Assembly (NCBI GenBank): GCA_965233585.1
Contig: CBDDTI010000155.1
Coordinates: forward strand, 1-39,841
DNA length: 39,841 nucleotides
DNA from: a bacterium
Lineage (GTDB): Bacteria > SAR324 > NAC60-12
Reading direction: 5' to 3'
Part shown: positions 2,510 through 34,465 of the stretch, piece by piece
Layout of the letters: each line of letters begins with the position of its first letter
Position numbering within the stretch: the first letter of the stretch is position 1
Position numbers and translations under genes: made by a program
Notes under the pieces: generated by a model
Told to the model about the DNA's origin: nothing
Databases searched by the model: none
Seen by the model: the letters and a program-made list of their open reading frames with translations, nothing else

Positions 2510-3365
2510 GAACTGGGGATAACAGAATTAAACTAAAAAAGTTGAGAATTCATAGAACTGATATATTTAACATAGAATTAAACTACATAAGTTGATATCT
2601 CCACTGAACTGGGGATAACATAGAGTTAGACTGTTGCTCCCCCGTCCATCTAACCGCCCACATTATACAAGCAAATTCTATGGGGTTAATACCAAAAACA
2701 GGGGAGCAACACCTTATAGAAAACAATAACATAAATCAAAACAACAAACAACAAAAAAAACTCAAACAACCTAAACAATACAATAGATTATAAAAAAAGA
2801 CTATACCATAAATCATAACAAAAAAACAATTTCACTCTTATAATTTTGAAATTATAAAATGAAATTTATGTTTGCTGTTTCTTCAAGTTCTCCAGATGCT
2901 TTGTTGTTTGTGTGTGTGTCTCTTGTAATTCTTACATTGAATTTCATAATCATCACATACAGGGCAGGTCATCCATTTTATTTTAGCATTCACTTGTTCA
3001 ATGTTTTCTGCTCTATGATTTCTTCTTTCATTTATTTCTTCCCTGTGTGTCCTACCATAATTTCTAGCATATTCCTTTGCCTCCTCTATATGATTGTAAT
3101 AATACTCTCTCCTCCTTTCATTATATTTTTCTTTGTTCTTTTGATGATTAGCCCTCATATATTCCCTACATTTATCACAAGTTTTGTATATACCCTTTTC
3201 CATTTCCTTAAAACATTTAGCACACTTGACTTTAGTATCCTCCATTACCTACTATAGATAGGTAATAACTCTTTAAGTGTCTTTCCTATCCCTTTTCCCT
3301 AGATTATAACATAATCAACAACAAAATCATAACAACAAACAACAAAAGAAAAAAACAAAACAACA
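2510..3365 (+). repeat. Left terminal inverted repeat of the Polinton-like element
   Basis: GAACTGGGGATAA...GTTAGACTGTTGCTCCCCCGTC...CCCTAGATTATAACATAATCAACAACAAAATCA is the reverse complement of ~33550-34465. Identity is high to ~3329, then decays in an A/C-rich tract, so the inner edge is approximate. Confidence 0.92.
2883..3245 (-). CDS. TIR-encoded zinc-finger/basic helical protein, left copy (C-terminal frameshift)
   Basis: CxxC..CxxC N-terminus, R/E/Y-rich helix, CPVC..RH end; an extra AC in a CA run shifts the last codons relative to the right copy. Confidence 0.7.
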   Translation of the reverse strand: MEDTKVKCAKCFKEMEKGIYKTCDKCREYMRANHQKNKEKYNERRREYYYNHIEEAKEYARNYGRTHREEINERRNHRAENIEQVNAKIKWMTCPVCDDYEIQCKNYKRHTHKQQSIWRT

Positions 3366-4345
3366 TAGACAAAACAAAAGACAATAAAAAAGACAATACC
3401 ATAAATCATAACAACAATAACAAAATCAAAACAACCTACTACAAACAAAATACAAGCAAAAAGAAAGCAGCAAAACAACAATAACAAAATCCTAACAACC
3501 TACTATTAATAAAACATAAACCATAACAACCTCATCATATCAACCCATCTCATCCGTCTCATCCGTAACAACTATATAATATAATCATCATAATTGTATT
3601 GAATAATTTTCATCAAAGCATATACAAATATACATCATCTTACCTTATTTATTTCATAGGTGTTATTTCTAGAAAACATCATTGCTAGAAATAATCCTAG
3701 AAAATAATTGCAACATAAATTTAATAGAATTATTTTATCAAATTTATGGGGATAATCAACATAATTTTCATAATCATTTATTATGAAGAAGATGGGATTA
3801 ATTACCACAGTCTCCCCCTATAGGGGAAGCCTCAGCCCCCAGCCAATATACTATCCCACCCCCCAGCATACATACCAGCATACATACAAACTAGCATATC
3901 ACAACAGCATCACATCGTTCTCAATCTTAAATCTCTTTTAATCCGCAATTGCCATGCCCAAACCGCCCTTCATGAACTCGTTGATGACCACGTCTTCTTA
4001 ACCTCAGCACGGTGTGAATGGCACAGCAATCCAAACTTTTGGGGCGAAATGGAGTGAAAAAAATTTGTGTTTTGTGCCTTGTTGGTGCCAGAATGTCAAG
4101 CTTTTGAAGGCTCACTGGCATCAATGCTCTATTGAAGCAATGTCCTATTCCTACTTGACACCCTGAAACCTTGCTACCTACAGACCTTGTCAATCATAAA
4201 AGCATCAGCCAAGAGCCCTGTTTTGCAAGTCGGCGAAGCAAGCACTGTTTTGCAAGTCGCCCTGTTGGCGAAGCAAGCCTTCTCAAGACGTGAACCATCA
4301 TCGGGTCTGGGGGCCGCTGTCGACTGTGGGATGCCAGTGGAAGCC

Positions 4346-4555
4346 GCCGCGCTTCTCAGTCTCTTCGAGGTTCTCGGACCGAGGGACAAAGGGCACTCCA
4401 CTCTTCTCAGTCTCAATTGGGAGGCCGCGGCCGATGATGATGCCGCGCTTCTCAGTCTCCTCGAGGTTCTCCGACCGAGGGAGGAAGGGCACTCCACTCT
4501 TCTCAGTCTCAATCGGGAGGCCGCGGCCGATGATGATGCCGCCCTTCTCAGTCTC
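4346..4555. repeat. GC-rich tandem repeat, 96-bp period (~2.2 copies)
   Basis: Units start at 4346, 4442 and 4538 with GCCGC(G/C)CTTCTCAGTCTC; CTTCTCAGTCTC occurs five times. Confidence 0.9.
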
Positions 4556-5131
4556 CTTGCCGGAGTTCTCCTCTGCCATGACGTTGTTGCAGCTCACGCA
4601 CAATGCAATGATGAGGCAAGCGAATACACCAGATTTGAGCGCCATGGCAATGCCGACACCCCTGAGCTAAAAAGCGTCCCTGAGTGGCTTGAGGAAAAAC
4701 TCGCAAAAACGCTACGGAAGAACATAAAGATGCTGAAGAATGACACAAAATTCCAAGCGCAAACTGAAAGAGCTAATTTCTGTAGCTTCCAATTGAGACT
4801 GTCAAAGGTGCTCAAATTGAAACAAATTCCAAGGTCAAGCTCTCCAAGAACATGTGGCTTCAAACCTCCAACTGGCATATTCCCAACAGCTGAGTGCCCC
4901 GACAACAGGATGAAGAAGAGATTGATGACAAAGCCAAGGCGAGGAAGGGCAAAGGAACATGGAGCAATCCCAGCCAATGACCCAGTCAAACACAAATTCG
5001 TGGGGAGAAACAAATGAAGGGCAAAACACAAAACCCCGAAACCAAAAGAGCACATCAAATCAACCATCTCATGGTTGCATCAAGTAGGCATAAGTAAGAA
5101 AAACAAATGCTTACAAGGCTTTCTAAAAACA

Positions 5132-6052
5132 CTAAACCTTTAAAAGTTCGTGCCTCATCAACAATCTTGGGTAATCAGTTAATTTGTAATATTTTTGGTT
5201 CAACTTTTCTGCAATCTCTTGCACAACATAATAACCTTTCAGCCAGTGGGAAGTTCTTTCTTTCTGTGTAATTGCTTTCTTTCTCATTATCTTTACTTTG
5301 TCTCCCACCTCTAATGTTGGGTATATTCTTTCTTTCTTTGCCTTTGATGCTACATTCAGCATTGCTCTGAATTCATTGTTATCTTTCCTTGCCTCTTTTG
5401 GTGTCATACCTGTAGCGGAATGCTTCATCTTATCATTGTATGTCAGCATAATTTCTAAATTGTAATCAACCCATTGTATGTTTGCCTTTCCCTTTTTTTC
5501 ATCAGCCTCCACTCCTTTAAAAAGCATATCTTTGTATGTGCGTATAAATCTTTCAGCAAATGTTGGGTGTCCTCTTGTCCTATGTAAGGTTATACCTTCA
5601 CCTTCCACATAATCCTTAAAGTCTTCACCTGCTATTGCTCTCTCATCATCTGTATAAATCATTTTAGGCTTCTTACCCATTTTCCCTAATGCCTCTTTAG
5701 TTGCTTCAAGGACATCCTCCCCATTTTTAGTTTTGATTGGAACAACAACGGCATACTTGCTTAAAACATCAATGCACACTAACCCACCTCTGAATTTTTG
5801 TTCCTCATCAAAATCGTAATAACCCATAAAGAACAAATCAATCTGATAAGTGTGATAATTGTGAGGGGCTGTGAAGGAGTTATACCCTCTGGGCTTTGCT
5901 TTTATCTCAACATTTTTTCTAAAGAAATTTTCAACATCCTCTTTCTTGATTGTGGGTTCTTTCTTTTTAGCATCTTCTAATGTGGTCTTTCTTGAACCAT
6001 AGCCCGCTTTATCAAAATAAATATCACTAATAATCTTCTGTTTATCACTCAT
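5132..6052 (-). CDS. Retroviral-type (rve) DDE integrase, Polinton/Maverick family
   Basis: YQIDL...IYTDDE...FAERFIRT catalytic triad; YN...HS.TGMTP; C-terminal VGDKVKI SH3-like segment. Confidence 0.93.
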   Translation of the reverse strand: MSDKQKIISDIYFDKAGYGSRKTTLEDAKKKEPTIKKEDVENFFRKNVEIKAKPRGYNSFTAPHNYHTYQIDLFFMGYYDFDEEQKFRGGLVCIDVLSKYAVVVPIKTKNGEDVLEATKEALGKMGKKPKMIYTDDERAIAGEDFKDYVEGEGITLHRTRGHPTFAERFIRTYKDMLFKGVEADEKKGKANIQWVDYNLEIMLTYNDKMKHSATGMTPKEARKDNNEFRAMLNVASKAKKERIYPTLEVGDKVKIMRKKAITQKERTSHWLKGYYVVQEIAEKLNQKYYKLTDYPRLLMRHELLKV

Positions 6053-6090
6053 TATAGAATAGATTATATAATAAGTATATATTATATCAT

Positions 6091-6690
6091 TTATTCTTCC
6101 TCTTGTTGCTTCAGCCAGTCTTGATGTTTTTTTGTCTTATTATGTCTTGATGTTGAGCAATTCTGAACTGGTTTTCCACACCCACATATAAAATACTGTT
6201 GTCGCATATCTTTTGTCTTTTCACAATACTGTTTTTTCCTCTCCTTTATTTTCTCTGGAATGGCAAGTCTATATTCTTTCTGCTTCAATAGCGCTTCTTC
6301 CTTGTTCTCATAGTAGTATTCCAGTTGCCTTTCATTTTTTCTTTCTCTTGTTTGTTCTTTGTATTCTTCTTTGGTTCGTCCTGCTATATGTTTATTTACA
6401 CAGTCATTGCTTTGGATGTAAAACCCTTCTCTTTTTGTCAATTCTTCTTTACTATTACAGGGGAAATTTTCTACTAATTCAATTTTACAATTTTCAAAAC
6501 CAAACTTGTCAAATATGTAATTTACACTTCTAAAAAACGGTTTGTCTTCATAATCCAAGTGAAAAAACTTATGTTTATGGTGTATCATTCTTTTTGTTAG
6601 TGGCTCAATAGTTGAACCATAGTAGCGCTCTTGGTATGCTACATCTGTAATCATATATATATTGCCCTTTTGATACTTATTATCACTCAT
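6091..6690 (-). CDS. GIY-YIG endonuclease with C-terminal zinc finger
   Basis: GNIYMI..YYGST..L.KR..H; ELVENFPC..EL..REG; C-terminal CGCG..RHNKTKKH. Confidence 0.85.
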   Translation of the reverse strand: MSDNKYQKGNIYMITDVAYQERYYGSTIEPLTKRMIHHKHKFFHLDYEDKPFFRSVNYIFDKFGFENCKIELVENFPCNSKEELTKREGFYIQSNDCVNKHIAGRTKEEYKEQTRERKNERQLEYYYENKEEALLKQKEYRLAIPEKIKERKKQYCEKTKDMRQQYFICGCGKPVQNCSTSRHNKTKKHQDWLKQQEEE

Positions 6691-6729: not shown

Positions 6730-9700
6730 TTAAATAGTTTTTATCTTATCACTAAATGCGCAATTACAAGAAACGCAATATCCAACTACATTATCCTTGA
6801 AGTGGCTTTGTTCATTATTAACCCTTTGACAGGTTATATTTGATGAAATTTTGCCATCTTCAAAATCTATCACCAATGGTTCATTACAATTTTCACACTG
6901 GGTATTCATAAGGTTCATCAAAAAATCTACATCCACATAATCCCCATCTTGTACATCTCTTCCTGCCTTTTTGTCTTGCTCAATGTAATTAAAAACCTTT
7001 CTCTCAAAATACTGCTCTACTATCCTTTTAGATTTACTTTCTTGACCTTCATTATATTTGAAAAACTTGATTTTGTTAAAGTCTGTCGCCCTTGTAAGGG
7101 CGGTGAAAAACCAATTCTTACTAACATACCATTCATTCCAATCATATATCACTATATCACCATCAACACTACAGCCCTGCTTTGAATGAGCGGTGTAGCA
7201 GTAAGCATATATAAAATGCTTTCTCAATAATTTCAGTTCTATATTTTGCTTCTCACCAGTTGCCACATTTTGTAAAACAACAATATCACCAACAATATTC
7301 ACAATCCTAAATCTGAAATTCACATTAAATTTCTTGCCTTTAGTCTTGATATATTTTCTACATATAACTTCCTCATTTATCACATATTCTTCACCTATAT
7401 TTTTCATTTCTCTGATTTTGCTGGAAACCATTTTACAGGTGTCGTTTGTATAAGCAATGTTATTATCATACATTTCTATCTTGTCAGTCCATTTGAAATA
7501 TGCATCAATGATTTCTCTAAAAGGTGTGCCTTCAAAAATCAACCTTTTAGCATCTCTTAACTTTTGCCTATCTTCTTCAGTCTTCAACCTCTTACATTCA
7601 TAAAGCATAATATTATTTTTGAAAATCAAATTAATACAATGGTCGGCGTATTTTTCGAAACTAATTACATTGCTTACTCTCTCTGGGTTTTTCAATTGCT
7701 TTGTATCACCAGTTGCTAATACAATCTTATCAGGATTATTTCTTTCAAAGTCCCATATCAAAGCCCACTTGCCGACATTATGAAAATATATCTCATCAAA
7801 CACTATGACATCATAAACTGAATACTCAAACTTTGTAAGCCTCTCATCTCCAAAAGAAATACTAAAAAACTTATTGATGGTCGCCCATTCACAACCGCAC
7901 TGTTGCCCTAACTCATTGCTATGAACAACGAATAAAACTCTGTAATTTCTATTTTTCAGATGCTTACATATATAACTCTTGCCTGAACCAGCGAACTCTG
8001 CTTGGATAAGCAACCTTTTATTATTCAAAATATGTTCATCTATGATTTCATCAGTGTTCCATTCATCCTTGACATCACCTGTCAAATTTTGATATTCAGT
8101 TATATTACATAACATACTGGGTTGTTTAGAAAAAGCCTTGCTGGGAAAATTGAATTTATCAGACCACCTCCATTCACCAATTTCACTACCAAATTTCAAC
8201 ACCTCCTTTGCCTTACCCAGATTACATTTATCAATCACAAAGGCATCAGTTTTTACTGAATACACCATTACATCATCCCTCATAAGTGTTTCATAAGCCT
8301 CATTCATATCAAAATTATGATGTTGTAAAATCAGTTCTTTCACATATTTATATCCGTTCCTCAAAGTTTTTGTATCGGAAATGTTCAGCACATAGTGCTT
8401 ACACTCATCCACTATTTTAGCACATTCTTTCTCATCACTTTCAGGTTCAATTGCATTGCCTTTATCATCAAATTCAAGCAAACAATCATCATCATCATTA
8501 TCATTCACTTCACCATCCCATTTAGTTTCAGTAATGATACTTATATCACCACCGTATTTTTCTTGATAGTAAAAGGCATCAACCATTTTTGAAAACACTA
8601 TGGACTTTTTAGCCTTGTTAGTTTGCTTTTCCAATAAGCCGATGTTGATACAAGCAATCATTTTTTTCTTCAACTTATCTTTCTCCTCATCCTCATCCAG
8701 TTTCAATTTCCAAAGTTCATCAACTATTTTTTTGTAATTAACTTTGTATGTATTAGATGGAACTTTGTAATAGATGATTTCAACCATATCAGCATATTTT
8801 TTCAAAAACTTACCGTAAATCAAGTTATAAGTCCTATTGAAAAATAGATTTCTCCTTTTGCGTTTAACAAGATATAATGTTAAAGCATTTATCTTGTTAA
8901 AATCATTCTTTGAATAATCATACTTCCTCCAAATATCAAATTCAGAAAAGACAGGCACTTCAAAAACATCCATTGTAGATTTAGTGTAGGCTTTCCTCCT
9001 ATCTAATTCAATGTGTGTATTCTTTCCTTCAATGATGCTTTCAAAATATCCACTGGGAGCTATGCTATGTGCCATTGAAAATATATTCAAGTCATCCTTA
9101 TGATAATATGACTTGTGATTAGGATTGAACATAGCCTTATTGAAATTAAAAAATGCTTCATTGACTACATTAAACATTTCAGCACTTTTACTATCAATAC
9201 AAGTATCAACAGCACAGTCTATCAAACTCTGGCTTCTGATGTTCAAAATTAATCCGTTAAATTTTACTTTGAGTGATGATACATTACCACCTGCTCCCAT
9301 TATGATTTTAGGCTCATACTTTGCCCTCTTAAACTCACAAAAAATTGTATTCAAGTTTTTGCCACTAACTAATTTCACTTCTTCTTCTTCACCCTCATTT
9401 TCTTTAACTATACCCATTATGTCATCAATGCCATTGAAAAAATCATACTTAACAGGCTTCTCTTTGCTATTTAAATGAAAGTCAGTAGAAGCATTTAGTT
9501 TCATATCTTCTTCAAAATCCCTTTGTGCTATGCTCTTGATGTTGTCATTCATTGTGTAAATGTGGTTACCCTTAATCAATTCAAACAAAACATTAACATT
9601 TTTGTTCTTGTCAGGGTCAAATGTATAAATCTTTTGACCGATACAGTTATACAACCTGACAGTTAATTTAAATTCTTCAAACACTGCTTCCATATCTTCA

Positions 9701-10779
9701 ACTGATGCCCCATTCTCCTTAAACTCTTCTTCATTTAAATTCATCAATTTCAAAATTTTATCTCTTGTCATTCTCTTGCGTTCCCATTTATTACTACTCA
9801 TCAATGTCTCTTCATAGTGGTCTATCAGTGAATTAATCCAACACTCACCGTCAGTGTGTTTCTTATTCTTGATGGCATCAACCAAATTATCACCGGCAAC
9901 ATCCATTTCAGTATTAATGGTGTAGTGATACATTCCTATCTCATGTCCATCCTTTAATTTTTTCTTTGTTTCATCCCCACTACCTCCTGTGTTTGATACA
10001 TCAGTAATGTCTAAAATCTTGATGGCAGTTGTGTAGTCTTCAAGGTTGGTATTATTCTTCAGGTCTGGGTGTTTTAAAACCAATCTCTTGAATAGTTTGT
10101 CAAACAAGGCTGTATCGTGTATCACTTCAAACTCTTTGTATCTACCTTTGGTGTCTCTTCTTTTGGGCAGTGTAGCATCTATTCCTGTCTCCCTTATCCA
10201 AGCCTCCCTAGTGTTCAGTTCATCAAATTGTTTTCTTGTAATTTTGTTTGGGTTGTCCTTCTTCAGTCTTAACCTATCTCTCAGTCGTTCCACCCATAAA
10301 TCAAACTTGTCTCTGACCGCATACTTATCCACCAGTGTTTCATTCAGTTTATCCTCATCTCTTACATTTTTCAAGTTCATCTGAATGGGCTGCTCCATAG
10401 AAAGTAGATTGTGCCAGTCTCCTTGGTTGTCTTTAAAGCCTCTCTGTCCTCCTGCTTTATGCCCATTATCAAAACCATACAACTGAAATCTTACAACATA
10501 GTCTTTCTTGTTTCTGTTAGTTGCCATTCTTTCATTCAATGGAGCTCTGCCTTCAATCTGTTCAAACTTTTTATCAAAACTTTTTTTAGCAAAAGTTGCT
10601 GTTCTCTTGTTGTCGCTCATCAGGCTGTTAATCAGTTTCTGTGCGGTTTCTCTTTGTGAAATCTTCCTGTCTCTATAAAATTCCACCACCTTATCTACTC
10701 TATATTTAACATCTTCTTTAGCACCTCTGGTTAATTTTTGTAGTATGCTTATATTATTGATTACACTTTTTGATTGCAT
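6730..10779 (-). CDS. 1349-aa replication protein: divergent family B DNA polymerase fused to an SF1 (RecD/Pif1-like) helicase and a C-terminal HNH-like zinc domain
   Basis: PolB-like motifs A (ELDRRKAY), B (KKMIACINIGLL) and C (SVKTDAF). Helicase motifs AGSGKS, VFDE, GDTKQL, TAHSKQG, FTALTRA. C-terminus CENC...QRVNN..SH..DNVV..CVSCN. Confidence 0.82.
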   Translation of the reverse strand: MQSKSVINNISILQKLTRGAKEDVKYRVDKVVEFYRDRKISQRETAQKLINSLMSDNKRTATFAKKSFDKKFEQIEGRAPLNERMATNRNKKDYVVRFQLYGFDNGHKAGGQRGFKDNQGDWHNLLSMEQPIQMNLKNVRDEDKLNETLVDKYAVRDKFDLWVERLRDRLRLKKDNPNKITRKQFDELNTREAWIRETGIDATLPKRRDTKGRYKEFEVIHDTALFDKLFKRLVLKHPDLKNNTNLEDYTTAIKILDITDVSNTGGSGDETKKKLKDGHEIGMYHYTINTEMDVAGDNLVDAIKNKKHTDGECWINSLIDHYEETLMSSNKWERKRMTRDKILKLMNLNEEEFKENGASVEDMEAVFEEFKLTVRLYNCIGQKIYTFDPDKNKNVNVLFELIKGNHIYTMNDNIKSIAQRDFEEDMKLNASTDFHLNSKEKPVKYDFFNGIDDIMGIVKENEGEEEEVKLVSGKNLNTIFCEFKRAKYEPKIIMGAGGNVSSLKVKFNGLILNIRSQSLIDCAVDTCIDSKSAEMFNVVNEAFFNFNKAMFNPNHKSYYHKDDLNIFSMAHSIAPSGYFESIIEGKNTHIELDRRKAYTKSTMDVFEVPVFSEFDIWRKYDYSKNDFNKINALTLYLVKRKRRNLFFNRTYNLIYGKFLKKYADMVEIIYYKVPSNTYKVNYKKIVDELWKLKLDEDEEKDKLKKKMIACINIGLLEKQTNKAKKSIVFSKMVDAFYYQEKYGGDISIITETKWDGEVNDNDDDDCLLEFDDKGNAIEPESDEKECAKIVDECKHYVLNISDTKTLRNGYKYVKELILQHHNFDMNEAYETLMRDDVMVYSVKTDAFVIDKCNLGKAKEVLKFGSEIGEWRWSDKFNFPSKAFSKQPSMLCNITEYQNLTGDVKDEWNTDEIIDEHILNNKRLLIQAEFAGSGKSYICKHLKNRNYRVLFVVHSNELGQQCGCEWATINKFFSISFGDERLTKFEYSVYDVIVFDEIYFHNVGKWALIWDFERNNPDKIVLATGDTKQLKNPERVSNVISFEKYADHCINLIFKNNIMLYECKRLKTEEDRQKLRDAKRLIFEGTPFREIIDAYFKWTDKIEMYDNNIAYTNDTCKMVSSKIREMKNIGEEYVINEEVICRKYIKTKGKKFNVNFRFRIVNIVGDIVVLQNVATGEKQNIELKLLRKHFIYAYCYTAHSKQGCSVDGDIVIYDWNEWYVSKNWFFTALTRATDFNKIKFFKYNEGQESKSKRIVEQYFERKVFNYIEQDKKAGRDVQDGDYVDVDFLMNLMNTQCENCNEPLVIDFEDGKISSNITCQRVNNEQSHFKDNVVGYCVSCNCAFSDKIKTI

Positions 10780-25223: not shown

Positions 25224-25224
25224 T

Positions 25225-25236: not shown

Positions 25237-25314
25237 CGCTCCAGGCGGCTGTCTAACCTGGACAAAGATCTGCCATAGCCGTTGCTGTGGCGGCCTACGC
25301 TGCGGAGGTGACCC

Positions 25315-28300
25315 ATGCCGTCTCCCGTGGAGCCTGCTGCTGAGGTCGACGGTGGCTCCGCCTCTGATGAGTCCGGTGGGGGCAATGATGATGCTGCTCC
25401 TGGGGAAGAGACTCAGCAGAGGTCTACGGCAAGATGGACTGATGAGGACTGGAGGTTGTGGAACTCTGGTGGTTGGTGGGAGGCTACTAGGAATAGGGCA
25501 CCTTCAACGGAAACCACCCCGACACCTGATGGGGAACACTCAGATGGTCATGGAACTGGGTATGTACGTAGGTCGTATACCACTAGGTCTTCTGACCCTT
25601 GGTTGAACCCTTGGAAAGACCCATGGACGAGTAGTCAGTATGGGAGTCAGAGAGACGAGGTTCCTGAGGAACGTGGAGGTGGCAACGACAAGATCGTGGC
25701 CCCAGAGTTTTCTGGGGAAGAGGACCGTGATGGGACTCGTGCTCGCAGCTACTTGAGGAAGATCGAGGCGTGGCGGAGGGTCACTAGGCTCAAGCCCAAC
25801 AAGCAGGCCTTGGTCTTGTACAACGGCCTCACTGGCAAGGCGTGGCACGATGCTGAGGAGATCGATGTGAAGATGCTGGACTCCAACGACGGTGTCGAGA
25901 AGTTCATCGGCTGGATCACCCAGCGCTACCTGGACAAGGAGGTCGTGAAGGCGGGCAGGTACATGAGTGACTTCTTCAAGCTCTTCAAGCGGGGCACGAA
26001 CCAGGACATCAGGGACTACAATAGCGAGTTCGATCGCCATCTCACGAAGCTCAAAGAGGTTGGCTGCGTCCTTCCGGGAGTCTGCAGCTCATGGTGGTAC
26101 ATCGACAAGCTAAGGTTGGACAGTGCAACGGAGTTGAGCCTCTTGTCATCCGTCAACAACCAGTATGACTTGGGGCGATTGCAGGAAGCTGCAGTTGTGC
26201 AGGATCGCATGAACCGGCGCCTTTGGGAGACCGGACGGAGGAGTGACACCAAGGACAACAAGAAGAACCAGCAGGCCTACATGACTGAGCTCGACGACAT
26301 CCCTGAGGACATGGAGGACTTCGAGGATGCCGAGGACTTTGACGAGACCTACGTCCCTGACGATGAGGACCCTGAAGCCCACGAGGCATTTGTGGCCTTT
26401 CAGAATGCCAAGGCCAAGTACAACAACATGCTGAAGGCTCGTGGCACTACTTTGACTAAGAGCCGTGAGGAAGCTCTCAGTCGGGCAAAGGCACGGTCGT
26501 TCTGTTCGGCATGTGGCAAGAAGGGCCATTGGCATAAGGATGCGGAGTGCCCCAAGAACAAGGGCAAGGATGCCGCAGCTGCTCCCCATGTGACCCATGT
26601 CGTCTTCTACACGGAGGGCACCTACTTGGACACCATCGTGGATTGTGCGTGCAGTCGCACGCTGGCGGGAACTATGTGGTGCAGGAAGTACATCGAGCTG
26701 GCGAAGGACAACGGCATCCCCTACATCATCATCAACCAGGACGAGACCTTCAAGTTTGGTGGACCGAAGCTCTACCCATCCAAGAAGGCGATCATCGGGT
26801 GGCTGGCCATTCAAGGCCGTTGGTTTTTGATCAAGATAGCTCTGGTGGCAGCACAAGTGCCGCTTCTCTTGAGCCGGCCCGTGTTGGCCTCTCTTGGAAT
26901 GAACTACAAGATGGACATCAATGTGGCGGACTTCACAAAGCTTAGCCTTGAGCATGTCAAGCTTGATTTCACGACTTCTGGACATCCCAGAGTCAATGCT
27001 GTGAATTTTGGACCGAAGGTCCCACTCTGGCCGGACAACATCGACTGGAGTGTGACAGAAGTGCACATCCCCGACACGGCATCTGCTGCGTCCCGAGCAT
27101 ACATGGCGAGTGCTGCTTCTGTTGGGCGGGTCCACTTCTTTTACCCCAAAGTACATGGACACATTTTTGACATGCTCACCCGTGACACATTGCCGAGTGA
27201 AACTTTCCTACATTGGTGGAACCAACAAACACATGTACGAGATTTTTGGGTGGAAGATGATGAATACATGGTGAGGGTACATGTGACACCACGTCGCACA
27301 TGTTTTGACCCTGGACGCTGGAACACGTCAGATGACACTTTGAGGACAAACCTTTTGAAGGAATTAGATGAGTGCAGGGAAACGACATGCATTCCATGCT
27401 ATGGCAATGGCATCACACATTGTCTTGAACATCGGTGGCGTCATGATTCTTCACCACGTGCTGACTTCTTGTGGATTGGCCGCAGCCGTTTTCGTCGTCG
27501 ACGCACGACGGAGCAAACCTGCTGCCCCACAATTCGACCTGTGTCGGATGTCCAGGACCGCTCCCAAGTCGCCATGGAAGATGACTCGTGCCGAGCTCAT
27601 CCAACAGATGGAGGATCTGGACATCCCAGTGAGGTACGAGTGGACTGTGCCGGAGCTGAGGGCGACTCTCTTGGGGACGCTGGACACCAAGGGGGACCAC
27701 ACCTACAAAGCGGTCGGCATCTCGCACATGTCGCTGGACGCCTTGAAGGAGAAGTGCAGCCAGGAGGGCATCCCCTTGCCGCCGCGACCCACACGGGGGC
27801 TACTCATGAAGCTGCTGCGGGAGAACACCCCACCGACCGGCGAGGAGAAGGTGTGCTTCGGGAGCTACAGGGGCTTCATGTACAAGGAGGTCAACTGGAG
27901 CTACCTGAACTGGGCGGTGAAGGAGGTGGAGACGAACCCCAACCACAGCCCAGACTTGGCACGTCTGGCTCGTTGGGCACAAGCCGAGAAGTCCAAGCCC
28001 CCTCGCGGTGGAACTTCTTCCGTGAGTGGGGATCCAGAACGTTCGGCCGTTCTGCCGATTCCTCTGGAGGCGCTTCCCAAGGCCAAGCACAAGATGGAGA
28101 AGAACACCATGAAGACAGCGAGAACATCGAGGACTCGGCCTCTGACGTCGGATTCCGAGGGATTCAGCCTGGTGTCGGAGCCCGAGATGAGCACGGAGGA
28201 TCAGATCAAGGACATGGAGTCGCGACTTCAGGTGCTGAAGGCCGTCAAAGCGGAGGAGGACAAGAAGGACAAGGGGTACTAGCTGGTGCCTCCAAAGTCA

Positions 28301-31300
28301 AGATGAAGAAGAAGGCCTATTGGGACAAGGTCGATCAGCTTCACAAGATGCGCATCGAGATGAACAGGAGGAGCTGCTACATCACTGCCGAGCACGACGC
28401 CCTTGACGAGCTCTACAACGTTGGGGAGACTACGCCCACCGCAGAGCTCTACGTCCCTGAGGAGAACACCATCTTTGAGGCTGAGCAGGACTCTGATGTG
28501 ATCGACCTTGACGACTATGATACAGATAAGGAGACCGGGCATCCCAGGATCAAGCTGACCTACCCGGAGGACTATGATGAGGTGAGGAATCTGCCCTCAA
28601 AAAGGATGAAGAGGGTGGCCAAAAAGCGTGTCAAAGGTTGGGTCCACCGGGCCTTGCTTTGCCTCACAACGACATTGGTCGCACTTTCCACTCCTGTGGT
28701 GGCAGAGTTGAACGATGCCATCCTGGAGCCGGCCAAGGATCTTTGCAAGGCTGTGCTAGGACCCAATGCTCTTCAGGGCAAGAAGGAAGAGATCGCACTC
28801 CTTGAGCTGTTTGCGGGTTCCGCCCACCTTACAATGGAGTTCGCTCGACAAGGACATCATGTCTTGGAACCCCGAGACATCTTGTATGGCCACAACCTCT
28901 TTGACCCGCTCCAGCAGGAGTCGGTCTTCAACGACATCCAGTATAAGAGGCCCAAGCTCTTGTGGATCGCTTTGCCTTGTACCAAGTGGTCCACCTGGCA
29001 AAGGTACAACTATGCCCATCGAAAACAGCAACTACGCCGAGAACGTCAGAAGCAAAGGAGGTTGGTGCATTTCGCTGTGGAGGCGGCTTGGCACCAAGTG
29101 GCAATGGGCAACGAGGTGATGTTCGAGCACCCCAAGTACTCGGACATGTGGACAGATCCATCTATGCAGAGCTTCATGGAGTGTGAACATGTGGTCGCGG
29201 CCGATTTGGACATGTGTCGTTATGACCTGAGGGCCGTCACGGATGGCGGTAGGCTCAGGAAACCAACCAAGGTCGTGGCCACCAATCCCAACTTGGTGAA
29301 GGAGCTCACCAGGACTTGTCATGGAGGCCATGAACATACTCCCACTGAGGGCCGAAATACCAAAGCTGCAGGGATTTACACCCGCACTTTCTGCAAGGCC
29401 GTGATTGAGGGGTACAAGAACACTGATAGAAGCGTGTGGTTTCAACCTGGAGACCATGCTGCTGCCAAGACCACGTGGGAGAACTACGTGGCCAACAATG
29501 AGGGTGACTTGACAACAACATCGGGCAACAATATGTCCGGTATCGAGTTCCCCGAGAATGTGCCTGCAACATTGGGCAAAGCACTGAGGCGCGTCCATCA
29601 GAACCTTGGGCACCCAGCCAACCATGATTTAGCACGACATCTCAAATTGTCTGGTGCGAGTGAAGCTGCTGTGAAAGCTGCTCAAGGCTTACGCTGCACC
29701 ACTTGCAATCGGAAAGGCAATCCAGGAACAAGGAGGCCAGCCAAATTGGCTCGCCCCATGGAGTTCAACCAAGAAGTTTGCCTCGACACGCTCAACCTCC
29801 TGGACTCTGAGAAGAAGAAGGTTGAGGTCTTGTCCATCGTGGACACCGCCACGGGGTACCATGTAGTGAAGAAGATCAGAGGCCGCAAGTCAGCCGACTT
29901 GTTGGCCGATTTCACTGACGCTTGGCTCACTTGGGCTGGGCCACCTTTGAAAGTGACATGCGACCAAGAGAGGGGTTTCATTAAGGACTTCGTGGACGGT
30001 CTTGAGATGGTGGGCATCCAGGTGCGTTTCATTGCTGGGCAGGCACATTGGCAACAAGGAATAGTTGAACGTCAAGGCCAGTGGTACCGGGCCATTTGGG
30101 ACCGGACTATTGCCCACAGTCAACCACTACCACATGAGATTGAATATACCCTGGCCATGGTTTCTGCAGCCAAGAACAACCTGAGGAGAAAACATGGCTA
30201 CTCACCTGCACAGTGGCTCTTTGGAGCAGAACCTCGTCTAGGAGATGCCATGCTGGACGAGGACGCCAACCTCTACACCAAGGAGGAACTGAGATCCCCT
30301 AATGAAGTCTGGAGAAGGAGACAAGCAATTCGCCTGGCTGCCCGAGAAGCTTTCATGCAGACACAGGCTGATGATGCTCTCAAACGAGCCCTACTTGGGC
30401 GACCACGCGCTGATCAGGAAATCTATGAACAAGGAGACTACGTCTACATCTTCAGTCAACAAGACGACGGGTGGTGTGGCACGAAAACGCCAAAACGTCG
30501 GTGAGTGGATCGGCCCTGGTGTAGTGGTCGGTAAAGAGGGTAGCTCCTACTGGGTCTCACGCGGTGGTCGTTGTGTTCTATGTGCAGCAGAACACCTTCG
30601 CCCTGCAGAATCTGAGGAGCTTGGTATGGCCTTTCAGACCAAAGTGGTGAAGGACGACTTGATGAGGTTGGCACACCGCCTGGACAACAGCGACGACGAT
30701 GAAGTCTTTTCGCAGATGCGATGGATGAGGTGAGACCGAAGAGAGAGATCAACTATGAGGCGGTGCCAGAGAGAAGGCTGAGGACTAAAGGGGTAGTGCG
30801 TATGCATAAACGACCAGTCCCTGAAGGAGGAGACACTCAAGCACACCGTGGCCGTTCTCTTCCACCAGTACCCGATGATGACATCGAGGACATGTTGGAT
30901 CAGGAAGTCGAGCAAGCCACATCTTCCAGACCGACAGCACAGGCACTGATGGTGGAAAAGAGGATACCTCGTTCAACCATCAAGCAGAACGACAAGGAGA
31001 TCCGATGGGAAGACATCCCTGAGGAAGAGAGAGCCTGTTATGTCAACGCGGAGAAGAAGCAATGGACCGAGCACCTTCACTACGAAGCTGTACGAGTTCA
31101 CCCACCTGAAGATGCAGCTCTCTTGAGGAAGAAGGTGCCCAAAGAACGCATCCTCCGGGCGAGGTTCGCCTACCGGGACAAGCACGCCGCGAAACGACGT
31201 GAAGATGCTTCACTACCTCCAAAAGCTAAGGCGAGGCTGTGCATCGGGGGTCATCAAGATCCTGATCTGCAGAAGGGCGAGGTCAACACCGAGGCCCCTA

Positions 31301-32756
31301 CTGCTTCGAGAATGTCCTTGCTCACCTTGCTTTTCCTGGCGGCCCAGTTTGGATGGCAGCTAGCAGCTGGCGACGTGGAGGCCGCCTTCCTCAACGGGAT
31401 TGAGTCCAAACGTGGGCTCTACTTTGAGCCACCACGTCGTGGCTTACCAGAAGTGGAACCAGGCTCCCTCATCGAGATCGTGAAAGGGGTCTTTGGTCTT
31501 TCCAACTCACCTAGGCTTTGGTGGGACAAATTAGCCAAAGAACTCAAAGAGCTGAAGATCAAGGTTGGTGACGACACCCTTACTTTGAGTCATCACGACC
31601 TTGACCCATGTTTCTTCCCCTACGAGATCAACGTGGTCAACTACGAGGGGGCCTGATCACTCATGTCGACGACCTGCTCATCGCTGCCCCTCCTTCGGAG
31701 ATGGGACAACTACAGGTGGAACTTTCAGGATTGTTCCCCATTGCAAAGTGGGAATCTGGTACCTTCGACTACACGGGCGCTACCATCAAGCAGGTGGACC
31801 AGGTCATCGAGCTCTACCAGACTGACTATGTCAACACTCGCTTGGAGGCCGTGGAGATTCCAAAGAATGTGGAGACAGAGGAGATTGCAGACCAGGTCAC
31901 CAAGCAGGATAACATGAGCACCATTGGCGCCCTTTCCTGGCTGGCATCACAAACCAGGCCAGATCTCCAAGCTGGAGTCTCCCTTTCTCAGAGACGACAG
32001 CGCGACCCCACCTTCCAAGATGTGAAGAACACGAACAAGCTGGTCAAAATGGCACAGGCTGGGAAGGGTGAACCTCTTCAGTTCACGAAGGTTTCCGATG
32101 GATTAGATGACCTACTCCTGCTGGTATACAATGATGCGGCTTGGGCTAACGCTACGCTGGATCCCAACCACGAGCTTCCTGAGGACTACGAAGCAGCTGC
32201 TGGACATGGGGTGTATTCCCAACTTGGGCACCTGCTGCTCATGACGAGCCGCGCTGCTTTGTCAGGCCAAGAAGTGCCAGGCACCGTGGTAGGATGGAAG
32301 TCACACGGGTGCCCACGTGTTTGCCGTAGCACTTTTGCGGCAGAAGTCATGGCAGGATTGGAAGGTTGGGAAGAAGCCTTATGCTTCCGCTCTTTCATTG
32401 CGGGAGCCTTATCGGCTCAACCTGGCGGGCTTCGCGAGGCCAATGCGAGGGCCCTTTTTCCCATAGTCAGTTTGACTGACTGCAAGTCCGTGTACGACAA
32501 CGTCCATCGTGTGGGAGGACCAAGAGCACCAAGCGAGAAGAGATTGGTAGTGGACCTTACGGCCCTGAGGATGATGGTTGGCGAAGAGGCAGCCTACTGG
32601 GGCGGCATCATTCATGGAGCCCGGACTCTGCGTTGGCTCCCTACAGGAATGCAGCTGGCAGACATCCTCACGAAGGTCATCCCAGATGTACGTAGCTGGT
32701 GGGCCAACACACGCACCATCAAGCTACCTTTTTCATCCCCTGCAAGTCCAACGTAA
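25315..32756 (+). pseudogene. Copia polyprotein: Gag, zinc knuckle, protease, C5-MTase-like domain, integrase, RT, RNase H; three frameshifts (~30455, ~30710, ~31615)
   Basis: CSACGKKGHWHKDAEC; IVDCACS; ELFAG/LPC/EHP; HQNLGH..CTTC, CLD/CDQ/IVER; KARL..GG, GDVEAAFL, HVDD; NDAAW, AAE, TDCKS, QLADILTK, spread over four ORFs. Confidence 0.92.
27548..28282 (+). CDS. Overprinted +1-frame ORF within the Copia polyprotein (HeH/SAP-like repeats plus FGxYxG...YLxW module)
   Basis: Open 27368-28282, first plausible ATG at 27548; protein-like sequence with C/G-ending codons, while the polyprotein frame is open but low-complexity here. Confidence 0.7.
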   Translation: MSRTAPKSPWKMTRAELIQQMEDLDIPVRYEWTVPELRATLLGTLDTKGDHTYKAVGISHMSLDALKEKCSQEGIPLPPRPTRGLLMKLLRENTPPTGEEKVCFGSYRGFMYKEVNWSYLNWAVKEVETNPNHSPDLARLARWAQAEKSKPPRGGTSSVSGDPERSAVLPIPLEALPKAKHKMEKNTMKTARTSRTRPLTSDSEGFSLVSEPEMSTEDQIKDMESRLQVLKAVKAEEDKKDKGY

Positions 32757-32767
32757 AACACAACCAG

Positions 32768-32900
32768 TGTGAATGTAAAGCCAGACTTTGGACTTGCAGG
32801 TCTTGTGACATTTACCGGGCCACTCAGGCTCATGAGTTGTCAGAGTGTGAAACAGGTGCGGCTAGTTTCTCCGGTGGTTTCCCCCTTTAGTTTGTTTACA
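32768..32900 (+). repeat. 3' LTR
   Basis: 132 of 133 positions identical to the 5' LTR. Confidence 0.96.
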
Positions 32901-33027
32901 GGTTCCATTCCCCAAAATGTATATAGGGGGTGCATTCCTACCCAAAAATGATTAAATGTCCTTCATAATCTGCCCAAAATGTAGGGGCTACATTCCCCAA
33001 AATGGAGGGGTTCCATTCCCATTATCT

Positions 33028-33153
33028 GGGCTGGACATAGGGATGTCTAAGGGCTGGACATAGGGATGTCTAAGGGCTGGACATAGGGATGTCTAAGGGC
33101 TGGACATAGGGATGTCTAAGGGCTGGACATAGGGATGTCTAAGGGCTGGACAT
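33028..33153. repeat. Tandem repeat, 23-bp unit GGGCTGGACATAGGGATGTCTAA x5.5
   Basis: Perfect copies at 33028, 33051, 33074, 33097, 33120 and a partial one at 33143; each full unit contains GACAT-N4-ATGTC. Confidence 0.95.
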
Positions 33154-33173
33154 TGGGTATTGAGCCTATGGAC

Positions 33174-33327
33174 GTATTCAGCATTTGAATACAGAATAAG
33201 GGCGTATTCAGATACTGAATACGGGGTATTCAGCATTTGAATACAGAATAATGGCGTATTCGGATACTGAATACAGAATACGGGTGTATTCGGATACTGA
33301 ATACGGGTGTATTCGGATACTGAATAC
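33174..33327. repeat. Array of six palindromes GTATTC-N7-GAATAC
   Basis: Copies start at 33174, 33204, 33226, 33256, 33286 and 33309, with 3-11 bp spacers. Confidence 0.92.
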
Positions 33328-33549
33328 GGGGTATTTAACAAATGAATTGTTTTTAGATGGTTTCTTCTTCTCATTCATTTTTATGTAATTGCTGGGATGT
33401 GGCTTTATAGATAAATTATTTCATAAATAATTTATCTTAAAGTCCATTCATAGGTATAGGCTTTGCAATAGGCTTTTGAATGAGGTTAAGTGTATGGTTT
33501 GTTGTTATGGTTTGTGGTAAGGTTTGTTTTATGGTCTATTGTATCGTTT

Positions 33550-34465
33550 AGGTTGTTTTGTTTTTTCTTTGTTTTATGTGTTTGTTTTGATTTTGTTGTT
33601 GATTATGTTATAATCTAGGGAAAAGGGATAGGAAAGACACTTAAAGAGTTATTACCTATCTATAGTAGGTAATGGAGGATACTAAAGTCAAGGTAATGGA
33701 GGATACTAAAGTCAAGTGTGCTAAATGTTTTAAGGAAATGGAAGAGGGTAAATACAAAACTTGTGATAAATGTAGGGAATATATGAGGGCTAATCATCAA
33801 AAGAACAAAGAAAAATATAATGAAAGGAGGAGAGAGTATTATTACAATCATATAGAGGAGGCAAAGGACTATGCTAGAAATTATGGTAGGACACACAGTG
33901 AAGAAATAAATGAAAGAAGAAGAAATCATAGAGCAGAAAACATTGAACAAGTGACTGCTAAAATAAAATGGATGACCTGCCCTGTATGTGATGATTATGA
34001 AATTCAATGTAAGAATTACAAGAGACACACACAAACAACAAAGCATCTGGAGAACTTAAAGAAACAGCAAACATAAATTTCATTTTATAATTTCAAAATT
34101 ATAAAAGTGAAATTGTTTTTTGTTATGATTTATGGTATAGTCTTTTTTATAATCTATTGTATTGTTTAGGCTGTTTGAGTTTTTTGTTTTGTTGTTTTGT
34201 TGTTATGATTTATGTTATTGTTTTCTATAAGGTGGTGCTCCCCTGTCTTTGGTATTAACCCCATAGAATTTGCTTGTATAATAATGTGGGCGGTTAGATG
34301 AGAAAGACGGGGGAGCAACAGTCTAACTCTATGTTATCCCCAGTTCAGTGGAGATATCAACTTATATAGTTTAATTCTATGTTAAATATATCAGTTCTAT
34401 GAATTCTCATTTTTTTTAGTTTAATTCTATGTTATCCAGAGTTTTTTTTCTATTATCCCCAGTTC
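33550..34465 (-). repeat. Right terminal inverted repeat of the Polinton-like element
   Basis: Reverse complement of 2510-3365 with small indels; ends ...TTATCCCCAGTTC. Confidence 0.92.
33672..34076 (+). CDS. TIR-encoded zinc-finger/basic helical protein, right copy
   Basis: Near-identical to the left copy; intact CPVC...RHTQTTKH finger; 24-bp tandem duplication of the start (MEDTKVKV-MEDTKVK). Confidence 0.75.
   Translation: MEDTKVKVMEDTKVKCAKCFKEMEEGKYKTCDKCREYMRANHQKNKEKYNERRREYYYNHIEEAKDYARNYGRTHSEEINERRRNHRAENIEQVTAKIKWMTCPVCDDYEIQCKNYKRHTQTTKHLENLKKQQT

What the first reader, a model, noticed from the sequence alone, without database searches (positions are those of the whole stretch)
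2510..34465. Apparently complete endogenous Polinton-like virus in a probable dinoflagellate genome
Seen: ~0.85-0.9 kb TIRs enclosing ~24 kb of AT-rich intronless genes (integrase, PolB-helicase, MCP, penton, ATPase, lipase, fibre, MTase, four GIY-YIG). Known: Mavericks/Polintons pair an rve integrase with pPolB, ATPase, capsids and an adenain-type protease. Here no stand-alone protease is recognisable and the polymerase architecture and accessory set are atypical. Inference: a distinct PLV lineage that may not be described for this host group.
Basis: partly seen in the sequence, partly recalled or inferred. Interest (0 to 1): 0.88.

Follow-up and report, generated by a model that had tools for sequence, protein, structure and literature searches.

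The report
Decayed polinton-like provirus, dinoflagellate-type
This is a real integrated polinton-like virus of a family that is common in dinoflagellate genomes, but this copy is broken and its gene set matches kinds already in print, so it is an ordinary member and not a new lineage.

Summary
Terminal inverted repeats of 908 and 967 bp (95% identical) at 2510-3417 and 33499-34465 enclose an AT-rich viral gene block.

The 513-aa protein models as a double jelly-roll capsid protein. Its best solved match is PBCV-1 Vp54 (E 1.7e-17).

The 1349-aa "PolB-helicase" is the published "Tlr1-like helicase". It has an OTU-type cysteine protease domain (Cys and His kept in 35 of 35 relatives), a phi29-like protein-primed PolB fold (E 1.3e-7), an SF1 helicase and an HNH-like cysteine cluster.

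An rve integrase, an A32 ATPase, a probable penton, a phage-type fibre, a C5 methyltransferase and four GIY-YIG genes complete a gene set of the Tlr1 type. All of these are already reported for polinton-like viruses, including Symbiodinium ones.

The copy is not intact:
- The ATPase carries five extra bases that shift the frame.
- The fibre is frameshifted.
- One GIY-YIG gene has an in-frame stop.
- A 7.8-kb copia retrotransposon and a 1.3-kb GC-rich block sit inside the element.

Identical proteins occur on other contigs, so the family is multi-copy and young. The closest named relatives are Symbiodinium kawagutii gene models. The novelty claim is not supported.

The parts
2510..3417 (.). Left terminal inverted repeat (908 bp), with subterminal AACTGGGGATAAC motifs
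   Evidence: 95.2% identical to the right arm
33499..34465 (.). Right terminal inverted repeat (967 bp)
2883..3245 (-). 120-aa Cys-rich ORF inside the left TIR. Its mirror copy lies at 33672-34076 (+). It is related to the C-terminal half of the GIY-YIG proteins.
   Evidence: (family D4); its 90% cluster has 44 members
3820..5090 (.). GC-rich block (49.8% GC) between the left TIR and the integrase. It holds a 96-bp tandem duplication and a 115-aa ORF (4298-4645, -). Origin unknown, probably a secondary insertion.
   Evidence: no Pfam match; the exact ORF is not in the protein collection
5132..6052 (-). rve-type (DDE) integrase, 306 aa
   Evidence: PF00665 E 1.1e-6, 29.3 bits, below the cut-off of 32.6; D72, D135/136, E167; no PDB or PHROG match
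6091..6690 (-). GIY-YIG homing-endonuclease-like gene 1 (199 aa)
6730..10779 (-). Replicase of 1349 aa (Tlr1-like helicase). Layout: unassigned N-terminus (aa 1-~290), OTU-like cysteine protease (~300-410, C313/H406), pPolB-like domain (~430-900), SF1 helicase (~905-1240), HNH-like Cys cluster (~1290-1349).
10853..11125 (-). 90-aa Cys-containing ORF next to the replicase gene
   Evidence: only a weak zinc-finger match, E 0.26
11299..12396 (-). 365-aa low-complexity, lysine-rich ORF, function unknown
   Evidence: no family match; its cluster has 6 members
12680..13504 (-). GIY-YIG gene 2, interrupted by an in-frame stop at 13136-13138. The nuclease domain lies at 13136-13504 and the C-terminal repeat/Zn part at 12680-13135.
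13575..15116 (-). Major capsid protein, 513 aa, double jelly-roll
15438..16181 (-). 247-aa protein with an HSLGS motif, possibly a lipase or phospholipase (unverified)
   Evidence: the exact sequence is on 7 contigs and its cluster has 158 members
16226..17092 (+). Probable penton / minor capsid protein, 288 aa
   Evidence: atlas 0.98, viral clusters; Sputnik V18/19 family on 26% of members of one cluster; no Pfam or PHROG match
17153..17698 (+). GIY-YIG gene 3 (181 aa)
18403..21089 (+). Fibre gene of about 890 aa, split by a frameshift near 19895. C-terminal Peptidase_S74 intramolecular chaperone.
21118..21723 (-). GIY-YIG gene 4 (201 aa)
   Evidence: phrog_19446, E 5.9e-4; 40% identical to gene 1
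22027..22793 (-). A32-type packaging ATPase, broken by five extra bases after codon 160 (about 22311-22317)
24246..24872 (+). C5 cytosine DNA methyltransferase, 208 aa
   Evidence: PF00145, 27.5 bits, above the cut-off of 22; phrog_757, E 1.5e-16
25091..32900 (+). Ty1/copia LTR retrotransposon nested in the element. LTRs at 25091-25223 and 32768-32900 (132 of 133 identical, TG..CA). 5-bp target duplication GGTTC at 25086-25090 and 32901-32905.
   Evidence: (rve, RVT_2)
32901..33498 (.). Tandem-repeat stretch (23-bp units and GAATAC-rich units) that, together with 24881-25090, received the copia insertion

Best explanation
The interval is an integrated polinton-like virus (PLV) with a Tlr1-type gene set, sitting in a genome that is most likely a dinoflagellate's.

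Inferred life cycle of intact relatives:
- The rve (DDE) integrase inserts the linear, TIR-bounded genome into the host chromosome.
- A single large replicase copies the genome by protein priming. Its OTU-like protease would release the priming N-terminal part, the pPolB-like domain would polymerise, and the SF1 helicase would unwind.
- The double jelly-roll MCP and the penton build an icosahedral capsid, which the A32 ATPase fills.
- A trimeric fibre, matured by its C-terminal S74 chaperone, mediates attachment.
- The GIY-YIG genes are selfish homing endonucleases riding on the element.
- The C5 methyltransferase modifies DNA.

What is shown and what is inferred:
- Shown here: the folds, domains and conserved residues, the TIRs, the multi-copy state and the lesions.
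- Inferred from the literature on this class: protein priming, virion formation and any dependence on a giant virus.

This particular copy is a decaying provirus. Three genes are broken and two foreign blocks are nested in it.
For: - TIRs of 908 and 967 bp are 95.2% identical.
- MCP model: pLDDT 78.7, pTM 0.83. Foldseek against PDB gave 211 matches at E<=0.001. The top match was PBCV-1 Vp54 5tiq_B (E 1.7e-17, probability 1.00, TM 0.52/0.61), followed by SGIV, Sputnik, faustovirus, ASFV p72 and vaccinia D13. BFVD gave 121 matches at E<=0.001, including NCLDV and virophage MCPs and a TVS1 protein.
- Replicase aa 280-900 model: pLDDT 86.2. All 9 PDB matches at E<=0.001 are phi29 DNA polymerase chains (E 1.3e-7 to 2.4e-6, 518-533 alignment columns). 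Archaeal PolBs follow.
- OTU deubiquitinases match the N-terminal ~120 residues of that model with probabilities 0.89-0.98 but E 0.05-0.13.
- Residues kept in 35 of 35 relatives: Cys313, His406, Asp593, and Lys843/Asp845 of the motif VK[T/S]DA. The K-x3-N-x2-[FI]-G motif is also kept, apart from a Cys at the Asn in the window's own subgroup.
- Helicase: PF01443 E 4e-7; UvrD_C_2 in 17 of 22 and AAA_30 in 15 of 22 family members.
- ATPase: PF04665 E 3.6e-5. An intact 253-aa relative matches the window 160 of 160 in one frame, and aa 161-253 in another frame.
- Multi-copy state: 370 MCP relatives and 1320 representatives at E<=0.001. Exact copies of the window's MCP, penton, integrase, methyltransferase and lipase-like proteins lie on 2, 2, 3, 4 and 7 contigs.
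Against: - The integrase match is below Pfam's curated cut-off, and nothing matched in PDB or PHROGs.
- No sequence-level PolB signal was found. Pfam gave none in 22 members, and hhalign against phi29 gave probability 0.1. The PolB call therefore rests on one predicted model, an atlas lead and motif reading.
- Motif C has Lys where canonical PolBs have the first Asp, so polymerase activity is unproven.
- The OTU matches have E-values above 0.05.
- The penton and the lipase are only leads.
- No clean target-site duplication: GTGGTT on the left against ATGGTT on the right is a 5 of 6 match that needs a one-base offset.
- The intact ATPase relative P0405 gave no Pfam match at E<=0.05.
- The host was not identified. 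The best matches are unnamed ENA records, and no dinoflagellate spliced-leader relic was found (0 matches, uninformative).
Confidence: 0.85

Rival explanations
1. The provirus is actually intact and could be reactivated. The two frameshifts and the stop would be assembly or consensus errors among near-identical copies.
For: PMC10120064 (passages) reports that polishing collapses near-identical EVE copies and creates false frameshifts and stops. The other 15 or so ORFs are open. The window's MCP, integrase and penton are identical to copies on other contigs.
Against: The ATPase lesion is five extra bases, not a homopolymer slip. The copia element, with its own 5-bp target duplication, adds 7.8 kb to a genome of about 24 kb. 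The TIR arms differ at 43 sites and 9 indels.
Confidence: 0.1
2. It is a canonical Polinton/Maverick, a self-synthesising transposon with pPolB, rve integrase and an adenain-type protease.
For: rve integrase, a PolB-like fold, TIRs and the capsid genes. Repeat annotators label such dinoflagellate elements 'Maverick' (PMC11071213).
Against: No Ulp1/adenain protease was found in any scanned ORF. The polymerase is fused to an SF1 helicase, has no recognisable exonuclease motifs and has VK[T/S]DA as motif C. PF03175 was not detected.
Confidence: 0.03
3. It is a virophage in the taxonomic sense (Maveriviricetes), or a fragment of an endogenised giant virus.
For: The MCP model's best solved matches are NCLDV capsid proteins, and Sputnik matches at E 9.8e-15. 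The penton lead points to Sputnik V18/19.
Against: At 8-13% identity these fold matches only show the shared double jelly-roll. The element is about 24 kb, TIR-bounded and carries an rve integrase and a Tlr1-like helicase. There is no virophage cysteine protease and there are no NCLDV core genes.
Confidence: 0.02

Closest known systems
Tlr1 element of Tetrahymena thermophila and PLVs that encode a 'Tlr1-like helicase' (PMC5499653; PMC11161782)
   Same: MCP, minor capsid protein, A32 ATPase and rve integrase. No maturation protease and no stand-alone pPolB. A replicase of 1000-1400 aa with vOTU (Cys/His kept), a pPolB palm lacking the first Asp of motif C, a C-terminal SF1 helicase and then a homing-endonuclease-type domain. 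TIRs. GIY-YIG genes.
   Different: Tlr1's replicase ends in a GIY-YIG domain, whereas this one ends in an HNH-like Cys cluster, as reported for other PLVs. The hosts differ (ciliate versus probable dinoflagellate). No sequence comparison with Tlr1 itself could be run here.
Dinoflagellate endogenous PLVs: the 'Dino group' MCPs (PMC10120064), full-length proviruses (PMC11957031) and 'Symbiodinium PLVs' with HNH-helicase fusions (PMC12220804)
   Same: Host group, low GC against a GC-richer host, TIRs, and genes annotated as helicase, rve integrase, GIY-YIG, MCP, packaging ATPase and methyltransferase. High copy number. Retrotransposons nested in or beside them.
   Different: I could not see those papers' figures, supplements or sequence sets. 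Whether this exact family is among them is therefore unchecked. PMC12220804 describes the HNH unit as N-terminal to the helicase domain, whereas here the HNH-like cluster is C-terminal.
OmPLV of Oxyrrhis marina (PMC12721341)
   Same: A dinoflagellate host, about 25 kb, AT-rich, TIRs of 232-858 bp, GIY-YIG genes, copia elements nearby, fragmented genes, and a fusion of SF1 helicase with pPolB.
   Different: OmPLV has the reverse domain order (helicase then pPolB) with a full exonuclease domain. It uses a tyrosine recombinase instead of an rve integrase, has a Holliday junction resolvase, and no minor capsid protein was found. Its MCP is reported not to group with the other dinoflagellate elements.
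Polintons/Mavericks (Polintoviricetes)
   Same: rve integrase, a protein-primed PolB-derived replicase with a vOTU domain, double jelly-roll MCP, penton, ATPase and TIRs.
   Different: Polintons have a stand-alone pPolB with an exonuclease domain and an adenain/Ulp1 protease. Neither is present here.

Membership tests
Polinton-like viruses with Tlr1-like helicase (Aquintoviricetes-type PLV) | [quoted passage not shown] | tested here: met
   AF2 model pLDDT 78.7; PBCV-1 Vp54 E 1.7e-17, probability 1.00; 211 PDB matches at E<=0.001; BFVD
Polinton-like viruses with Tlr1-like helicase (Aquintoviricetes-type PLV) | Single jelly-roll minor capsid (penton) protein | tested here: inconclusive
   Atlas feature score 0.98 to viral clusters; Sputnik V18/19 family on 26% of members of one cluster; recognition value 2160, below the tool's 2300 mark. 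No fold model was made.
Polinton-like viruses with Tlr1-like helicase (Aquintoviricetes-type PLV) | A32/FtsK-type packaging ATPase | tested here: met
   PF04665 E 3.6e-5, 23.8 bits against a cut-off of 22.8. Relatives carry a precomputed PF04665 label. The gene is frameshifted in this copy.
Polinton-like viruses with Tlr1-like helicase (Aquintoviricetes-type PLV) | No adenain/Ulp1 capsid maturation protease | tested here: met
   No such family in the ORFs scanned with Pfam or PHROGs
Polinton-like viruses with Tlr1-like helicase (Aquintoviricetes-type PLV) | Large replicase: vOTU (Cys/His), pPolB palm (motifs A and B kept, first Asp of motif C lost), C-terminal SF1 helicase, then HNH or GIY-YIG | tested here: met
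   phi29 DNAP E 1.3e-7; OTU folds probability 0.89-0.98 but E 0.05-0.13; motifs kept in 35 of 35; helicase. The HNH part is weak: 1 of 22 members at E 0.046 and McrA at E 0.8. The terminal-protein-like middle domain was not tested.
Polinton-like viruses with Tlr1-like helicase (Aquintoviricetes-type PLV) | Linear genome with terminal inverted repeats | tested here: met
Polinton-like viruses with Tlr1-like helicase (Aquintoviricetes-type PLV) | Tlr6F-like conserved protein | not tested
   No reference sequence or profile was at hand
Polinton / Maverick (Polintoviricetes) | rve (retrovirus-like) integrase | tested here: met
   PF00665 E 1.1e-6 but below the gathering score; D, D, E residues present
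Polinton / Maverick (Polintoviricetes) | Stand-alone protein-primed PolB with exonuclease domain | tested here: not met
   The PolB-like fold is fused to an SF1 helicase. No PF03175 in 22 members. No conserved Exo motifs are seen among the invariant columns.
Polinton / Maverick (Polintoviricetes) | Adenain/Ulp1-type cysteine protease | tested here: not met
Polinton / Maverick (Polintoviricetes) | Target-site duplication from rve integration (6 bp, recalled) | tested here: inconclusive
   GTGGTT against ATGGTT, 5 of 6, only with a one-base offset at the right end
'Dino group' of dinoflagellate EVE capsid genes (PMC10120064) | MCP clusters with dinoflagellate EVE MCPs | not testable with these tools
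   No reference Dino-group sequences were at hand. Indirect: 6 of the 120 listed MCP hits carry a species label, and all 6 are 'Skav'.
Virophages (Maveriviricetes) | Virophage-type MCP together with a cysteine protease | tested here: not met
   No protease. Virophage MCPs match only at fold level, behind NCLDV MCPs.

The most novel reading that the evidence does not exclude
This is a young, still-mobile lineage of Tlr1-type PLVs in a Symbiodiniaceae-like dinoflagellate. Intact sister copies exist: identical MCP, penton and integrase proteins lie on other contigs, and an intact ATPase cluster has 182 members. Those copies could still make fibre-bearing virions and, like other PLVs, might act as virophage-like antagonists of giant viruses in coral symbionts. 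The strict conservation of the vOTU Cys/His and of polymerase motifs A, B and VK[T/S]DA across 35 divergent relatives would then mark an active polymerase with a non-canonical motif C.
Probability: 0.3. Interest if true: 0.5.

Novelty: new member of a known kind. Interest (0 to 1): 0.22.

Why it matters
It adds one well-dissected example to a class already known to make up 1-2% of some dinoflagellate genomes (PMC10120064). The useful points are modest:
- A high-confidence model shows that the "unknown domain" fused to the helicase in these dinoflagellate elements is a vOTU plus a phi29-like PolB.
- The copy illustrates how such proviruses decay, through nested copia insertion, small indels and a nonsense mutation, while near-identical sister copies persist.

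It does not open a new question.

Tried and rejected
- Sequence-level detection of PolB failed. phmmer of the 1349-aa protein against PDB gave 0 hits. A 22-sequence profile against PDB hit only helicase and HNH-like parts, at E >= 0.05. Pfam on all 22 members gave no PolB family. hhalign of the family profile against the phi29 polymerase sequence gave probability 0.1.
- Lipase: no Pfam match, and only a cinnamoyl esterase at E 0.78.
- Integrase: no match against PDB or PHROGs.
- Host naming: cluster look-ups returned no organism names, and I did not pursue the unnamed records. A search for the dinoflagellate spliced-leader motif found 0 matches, with 0 expected by chance.
- No tRNA genes and no Rfam families in the window.
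- Rejected: an NCLDV fragment, a taxonomic virophage and a canonical Polinton (see the rival explanations).
- Not done:
  - A DNA-level search for sister copies.
  - MCP and ATPase phylogeny against named PLV, Maverick and virophage sets. No reference sequences were at hand.
  - A fold model of the penton and of replicase aa 1-279.

Full report
**Structure of the interval**

The window appears to be a whole 39,841-bp contig, since the exact-match look-up lists 39841 as the contig length for its proteins. Inverted repeats pair 2513-3417 with 33499-34439. Alignment and direct reading extend both arms outward to a shared GAACTGGGGATAA tip at 2510 and 34465. Over 2510-3417 the arms share 861 of 904 aligned bases (95.2%), with 9 gap openings.

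Composition splits the interior as follows:

| Segment | GC | Length |
|---|---|---|
| TIRs | 30% | 908 and 967 bp |
| Block 3820-5090 | 49.8% | 1,271 bp |
| Viral core 5091-24880 | 32.7% | 19.8 kb (87% coding, uninterrupted ORFs) |
| Block 25091-32900 | 54.9% | 7,810 bp |
| Tandem-repeat stretches 24881-25090 and 32901-33498 | 46.7% and 40.1% | 210 and 598 bp |

The 54.9% GC block is a Ty1/copia LTR retrotransposon.
- Its ORFs match rve and RVT_2.
- It has 133-bp LTRs (TG..CA) that are 132 of 133 identical.
- It is flanked by a perfect 5-bp duplication, GGTTC.

The finding does not mention either insert.

**Capsid genes**

The 513-aa protein has no Pfam or PHROG family. It does have 370 relatives at E<=0.001 in the 90%-clustered collection and 1320 among the 50% representatives. 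With a 56-row alignment, AlphaFold2 gave pLDDT 78.7 and pTM 0.83, with two beta-rich halves.
- Foldseek against PDB returned 211 matches at E<=0.001. They were led by PBCV-1 Vp54 (E 1.7e-17, probability 1.00, TM 0.52/0.61), then SGIV, Sputnik, faustovirus, EhV-201, ASFV p72 and vaccinia D13.
- BFVD returned 121 matches at E<=0.001. These included NCLDV MCPs, virophage MCPs, an adintovirus capsid protein and a Tetraselmis viridis virus S1 protein.

It is one. At 8-13% identity these matches place the protein only in the double jelly-roll class, not in a family.

The 288-aa ORF, two genes away on the other strand, is probably the penton. The protein atlas gave 0.98 to purely viral clusters, one of which carries the Sputnik V18/19 family on 26% of its members. 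The tool's own recognition value was below its benchmark.

**The replicase**

Pfam sees only an SF1 helicase, at aa 929-1056 (E 4e-7). The family has 93 relatives, most of them 1200-1390 aa. A 22-row profile hit RecD2 and TraI helicase cores and, weakly, the HNH enzyme McrA at the Cys-rich C-terminus (E 0.05-0.8). No sequence method detected a polymerase.

A model of aa 280-900 built on 35 rows reached pLDDT 86.2. Its PDB matches were as follows:
- All 9 matches at E<=0.001 are phi29 protein-primed DNA polymerase chains (E 1.3e-7 to 2.4e-6, probability 1.00, 518-533 columns).
- Archaeal and eukaryotic family-B polymerases follow at weaker scores.
- The N-terminal ~120 residues match OTU proteases and deubiquitinases: TYMV PRO/DUB, DUBA, OTUD3 and MRFV protease. 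Probabilities are 0.89-0.98 and E-values 0.05-0.13.

Conservation across the 35 relatives (32-89% identical) supports both domains:
- The Cys of E-C-W-I-N and the His of N-H-I-Y are invariant.
- So are the Asp of E-[IL]-D-x-x-K-A-[FY], and the Lys and Asp of V-K-[TS]-D-A.
- The motif K-x3-N-x2-[FI]-G is also kept, apart from a Cys at the Asn position in the window's own subgroup.

The atlas also pointed to a Preplasmiviricota cluster in which 11% of members carry PF03175 (score 0.92).

This layout is the one published for "Tlr1-like helicases". That description gives a variable N-terminus, a terminal-protein-like middle domain, a vOTU with both catalytic residues, a pPolB palm that keeps motifs A and B but lacks the first Asp of DTD, an SF1 helicase, and then HNH or GIY-YIG (PMC11161782, passages; PMC5499653, parts 1-3 of the text). 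The earlier paper called the polymerase inactivated. The later one predicts it is active, because mavirus, pipolins and others also lack that Asp. I follow the later view but mark activity as inferred.

**Other genes**

- Integrase: rve E 1.1e-6, below Pfam's cut-off, with D72, D135/136 and E167 in place.
- Packaging ATPase: Pox_A32 E 3.6e-5.
- Fibre: the C-terminal Peptidase_S74 chaperone scores E 1.8e-10, and 8 phage tail-fibre PHROGs match.
- C5 methyltransferase.
- Four GIY-YIG genes: Pfam E 0.0095, 2e-8 and 4.6e-5. The fourth matches PHROG 19446 at E 5.9e-4. Genes 2-4 are 35-42% identical to gene 1.
- Each TIR carries a 120-134-aa Cys-rich ORF related to the C-terminal half of those GIY-YIG proteins.
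- "Lipase" is unverified. There is an HSLGS motif and an esterase alignment at E 0.78. A 2026 preprint does list phospholipase as a capsid-associated PLV gene (10.64898/2026.06.19.733378, passages).
- No adenain/Ulp1 protease appears in any ORF scanned.

**State of this copy**

- ATPase: an intact 253-aa relative (representative of a cluster of 182 members) matches the window 160 of 160 up to "...SRH". It then continues at "FGLSVITSSQ..." in another frame. The DNA shows five extra bases between the two parts.
- Fibre: the third copy of an internal repeat ("FYVG...") runs from one frame into another near 19895.
- GIY-YIG no. 2: a stop at 13136-13138 is followed in frame by 151 further codons of the paralogous C-terminal region.
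- Together with the copia element and the GC-rich block, this makes the copy a decaying one.
- Caveat: PMC10120064 warns that polishing of near-identical copies can create false frameshifts and stops. Five extra bases and a retrotransposon with its own target duplication are harder to explain that way.
- No clean target-site duplication flanks the PLV. The best candidate is GTGGTT against ATGGTT, with a one-base offset.

**Copy number and host**

Exact copies of the window's MCP, penton, integrase, methyltransferase and 247-aa proteins occur on 2, 2, 3, 4 and 7 contigs. Their 90% clusters hold 1, 133, 113, 7 and 158 members, and the replicase cluster holds 202, including many truncated forms. 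Seven of the 120 listed MCP hits carry a name. One is a JGI "hypothetical protein". The other six are EukProt "Skav" gene models, at 69-72% identity, as are 2 of the 93 replicase hits. I read "Skav" from memory as Symbiodinium kawagutii. The best matches are unnamed. A dinoflagellate host is therefore likely, but the species is not established.

**Comparison with the literature**

| Source | What I saw | What it reports |
|---|---|---|
| PMC11957031 | passages, | Full-length, TIR-flanked dinoflagellate proviruses annotated with helicase or pPolB, rve integrase, GIY-YIG, MCP, ATPase and Tlr6f |
| PMC12220804 | passages, | Stand-alone GIY-YIG genes widespread in PLVs; HNH-helicase fusions in "Symbiodinium PLVs (n = 12)"; S74-chaperone fibres "ubiquitous across PLVs" |
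| PMC12721341 | abstract and Results, | OmPLV of Oxyrrhis, and a S. kawagutii "dinoflagellate polinton" used as a reference |
| PMC11071213 | passages, | Maverick/Polinton repeats in Breviolum minutum |
| PMC7805220 | passages, | Six unique virus MCP genes in Symbiodinium microadriaticum |
| PMC13037468 | passages, | PLV contigs from Karenia brevis lysate metagenomes |

I saw no figures or supplements of any of these papers. Whether this exact family is drawn in them is unchecked.

**Verdict**

The element is a Tlr1-type polinton-like provirus of a dinoflagellate-associated, multi-copy family. The "atypical" features are the published norm for this class, and the copy is not intact. It is a new member of a known kind and of low interest.

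Noticed in passing
window 25091-32900: A young Ty1/copia LTR retrotransposon is nested in the provirus. Its 133-bp LTRs are 132 of 133 identical and it has the target duplication GGTTC. A 1729-aa ORF is followed by two further ORFs (30721-31656 and 31608-32756). The rve domain lies in the first ORF and RVT_2 in the second, so the polyprotein seems split. A second copia RT ORF lies outside the element at 37513-39720 (-).
   Followed up: partly
window 3820-5090: A GC-rich (50%) block lies between the left TIR and the integrase. It has a 96-bp tandem duplication and a 115-aa ORF (4298-4645, -) that starts with a hydrophobic, signal-peptide-like stretch and contains two 32-aa repeats. It has no family match and is not in the protein collection. 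It could be captured host DNA, another mobile element or an introner-type insertion.
   Followed up: partly
window 1990-2073, 34964-35037, 35400-35486: An element end of about 75-84 bp is repeated on both sides of the provirus. One copy lies left of it. Two copies to the right, in inverted orientation and 375 bp apart, look like a small MITE.
   Followed up: no
window 24881-25090 and 32901-33498: Tandem-repeat DNA lies between the methyltransferase gene and the right TIR: five and a half copies of a 23-bp unit at 33005-33180 and GAATAC-rich units at 33183-33347. It is unclear whether it belongs to the virus or is another insertion.
   Followed up: no
window 21710-21997 (+): A small intergenic ORF has a methionine followed by GNKQS, which resembles an N-myristoylation signal (recalled motif). 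This would suit a small membrane or capsid-associated protein. It has no family match.
   Followed up: no
window 2187-2509: The 323 bp just left of the provirus are 49% GC, while the rest of the left flank (1-2186) is 30% GC and the right flank starts AT-rich. The two sides of the insertion site do not look alike, which may be why no clean target duplication is seen.
   Followed up: no
protein P0405 (relative of the ATPase at window 22027-22793): The intact 253-aa ATPase relative gave no Pfam match at E<=0.05, while the window's truncated 167-aa piece matched Pox_A32 at E 3.6e-5. This shows how marginal the sequence signal for this family is.
   Followed up: no
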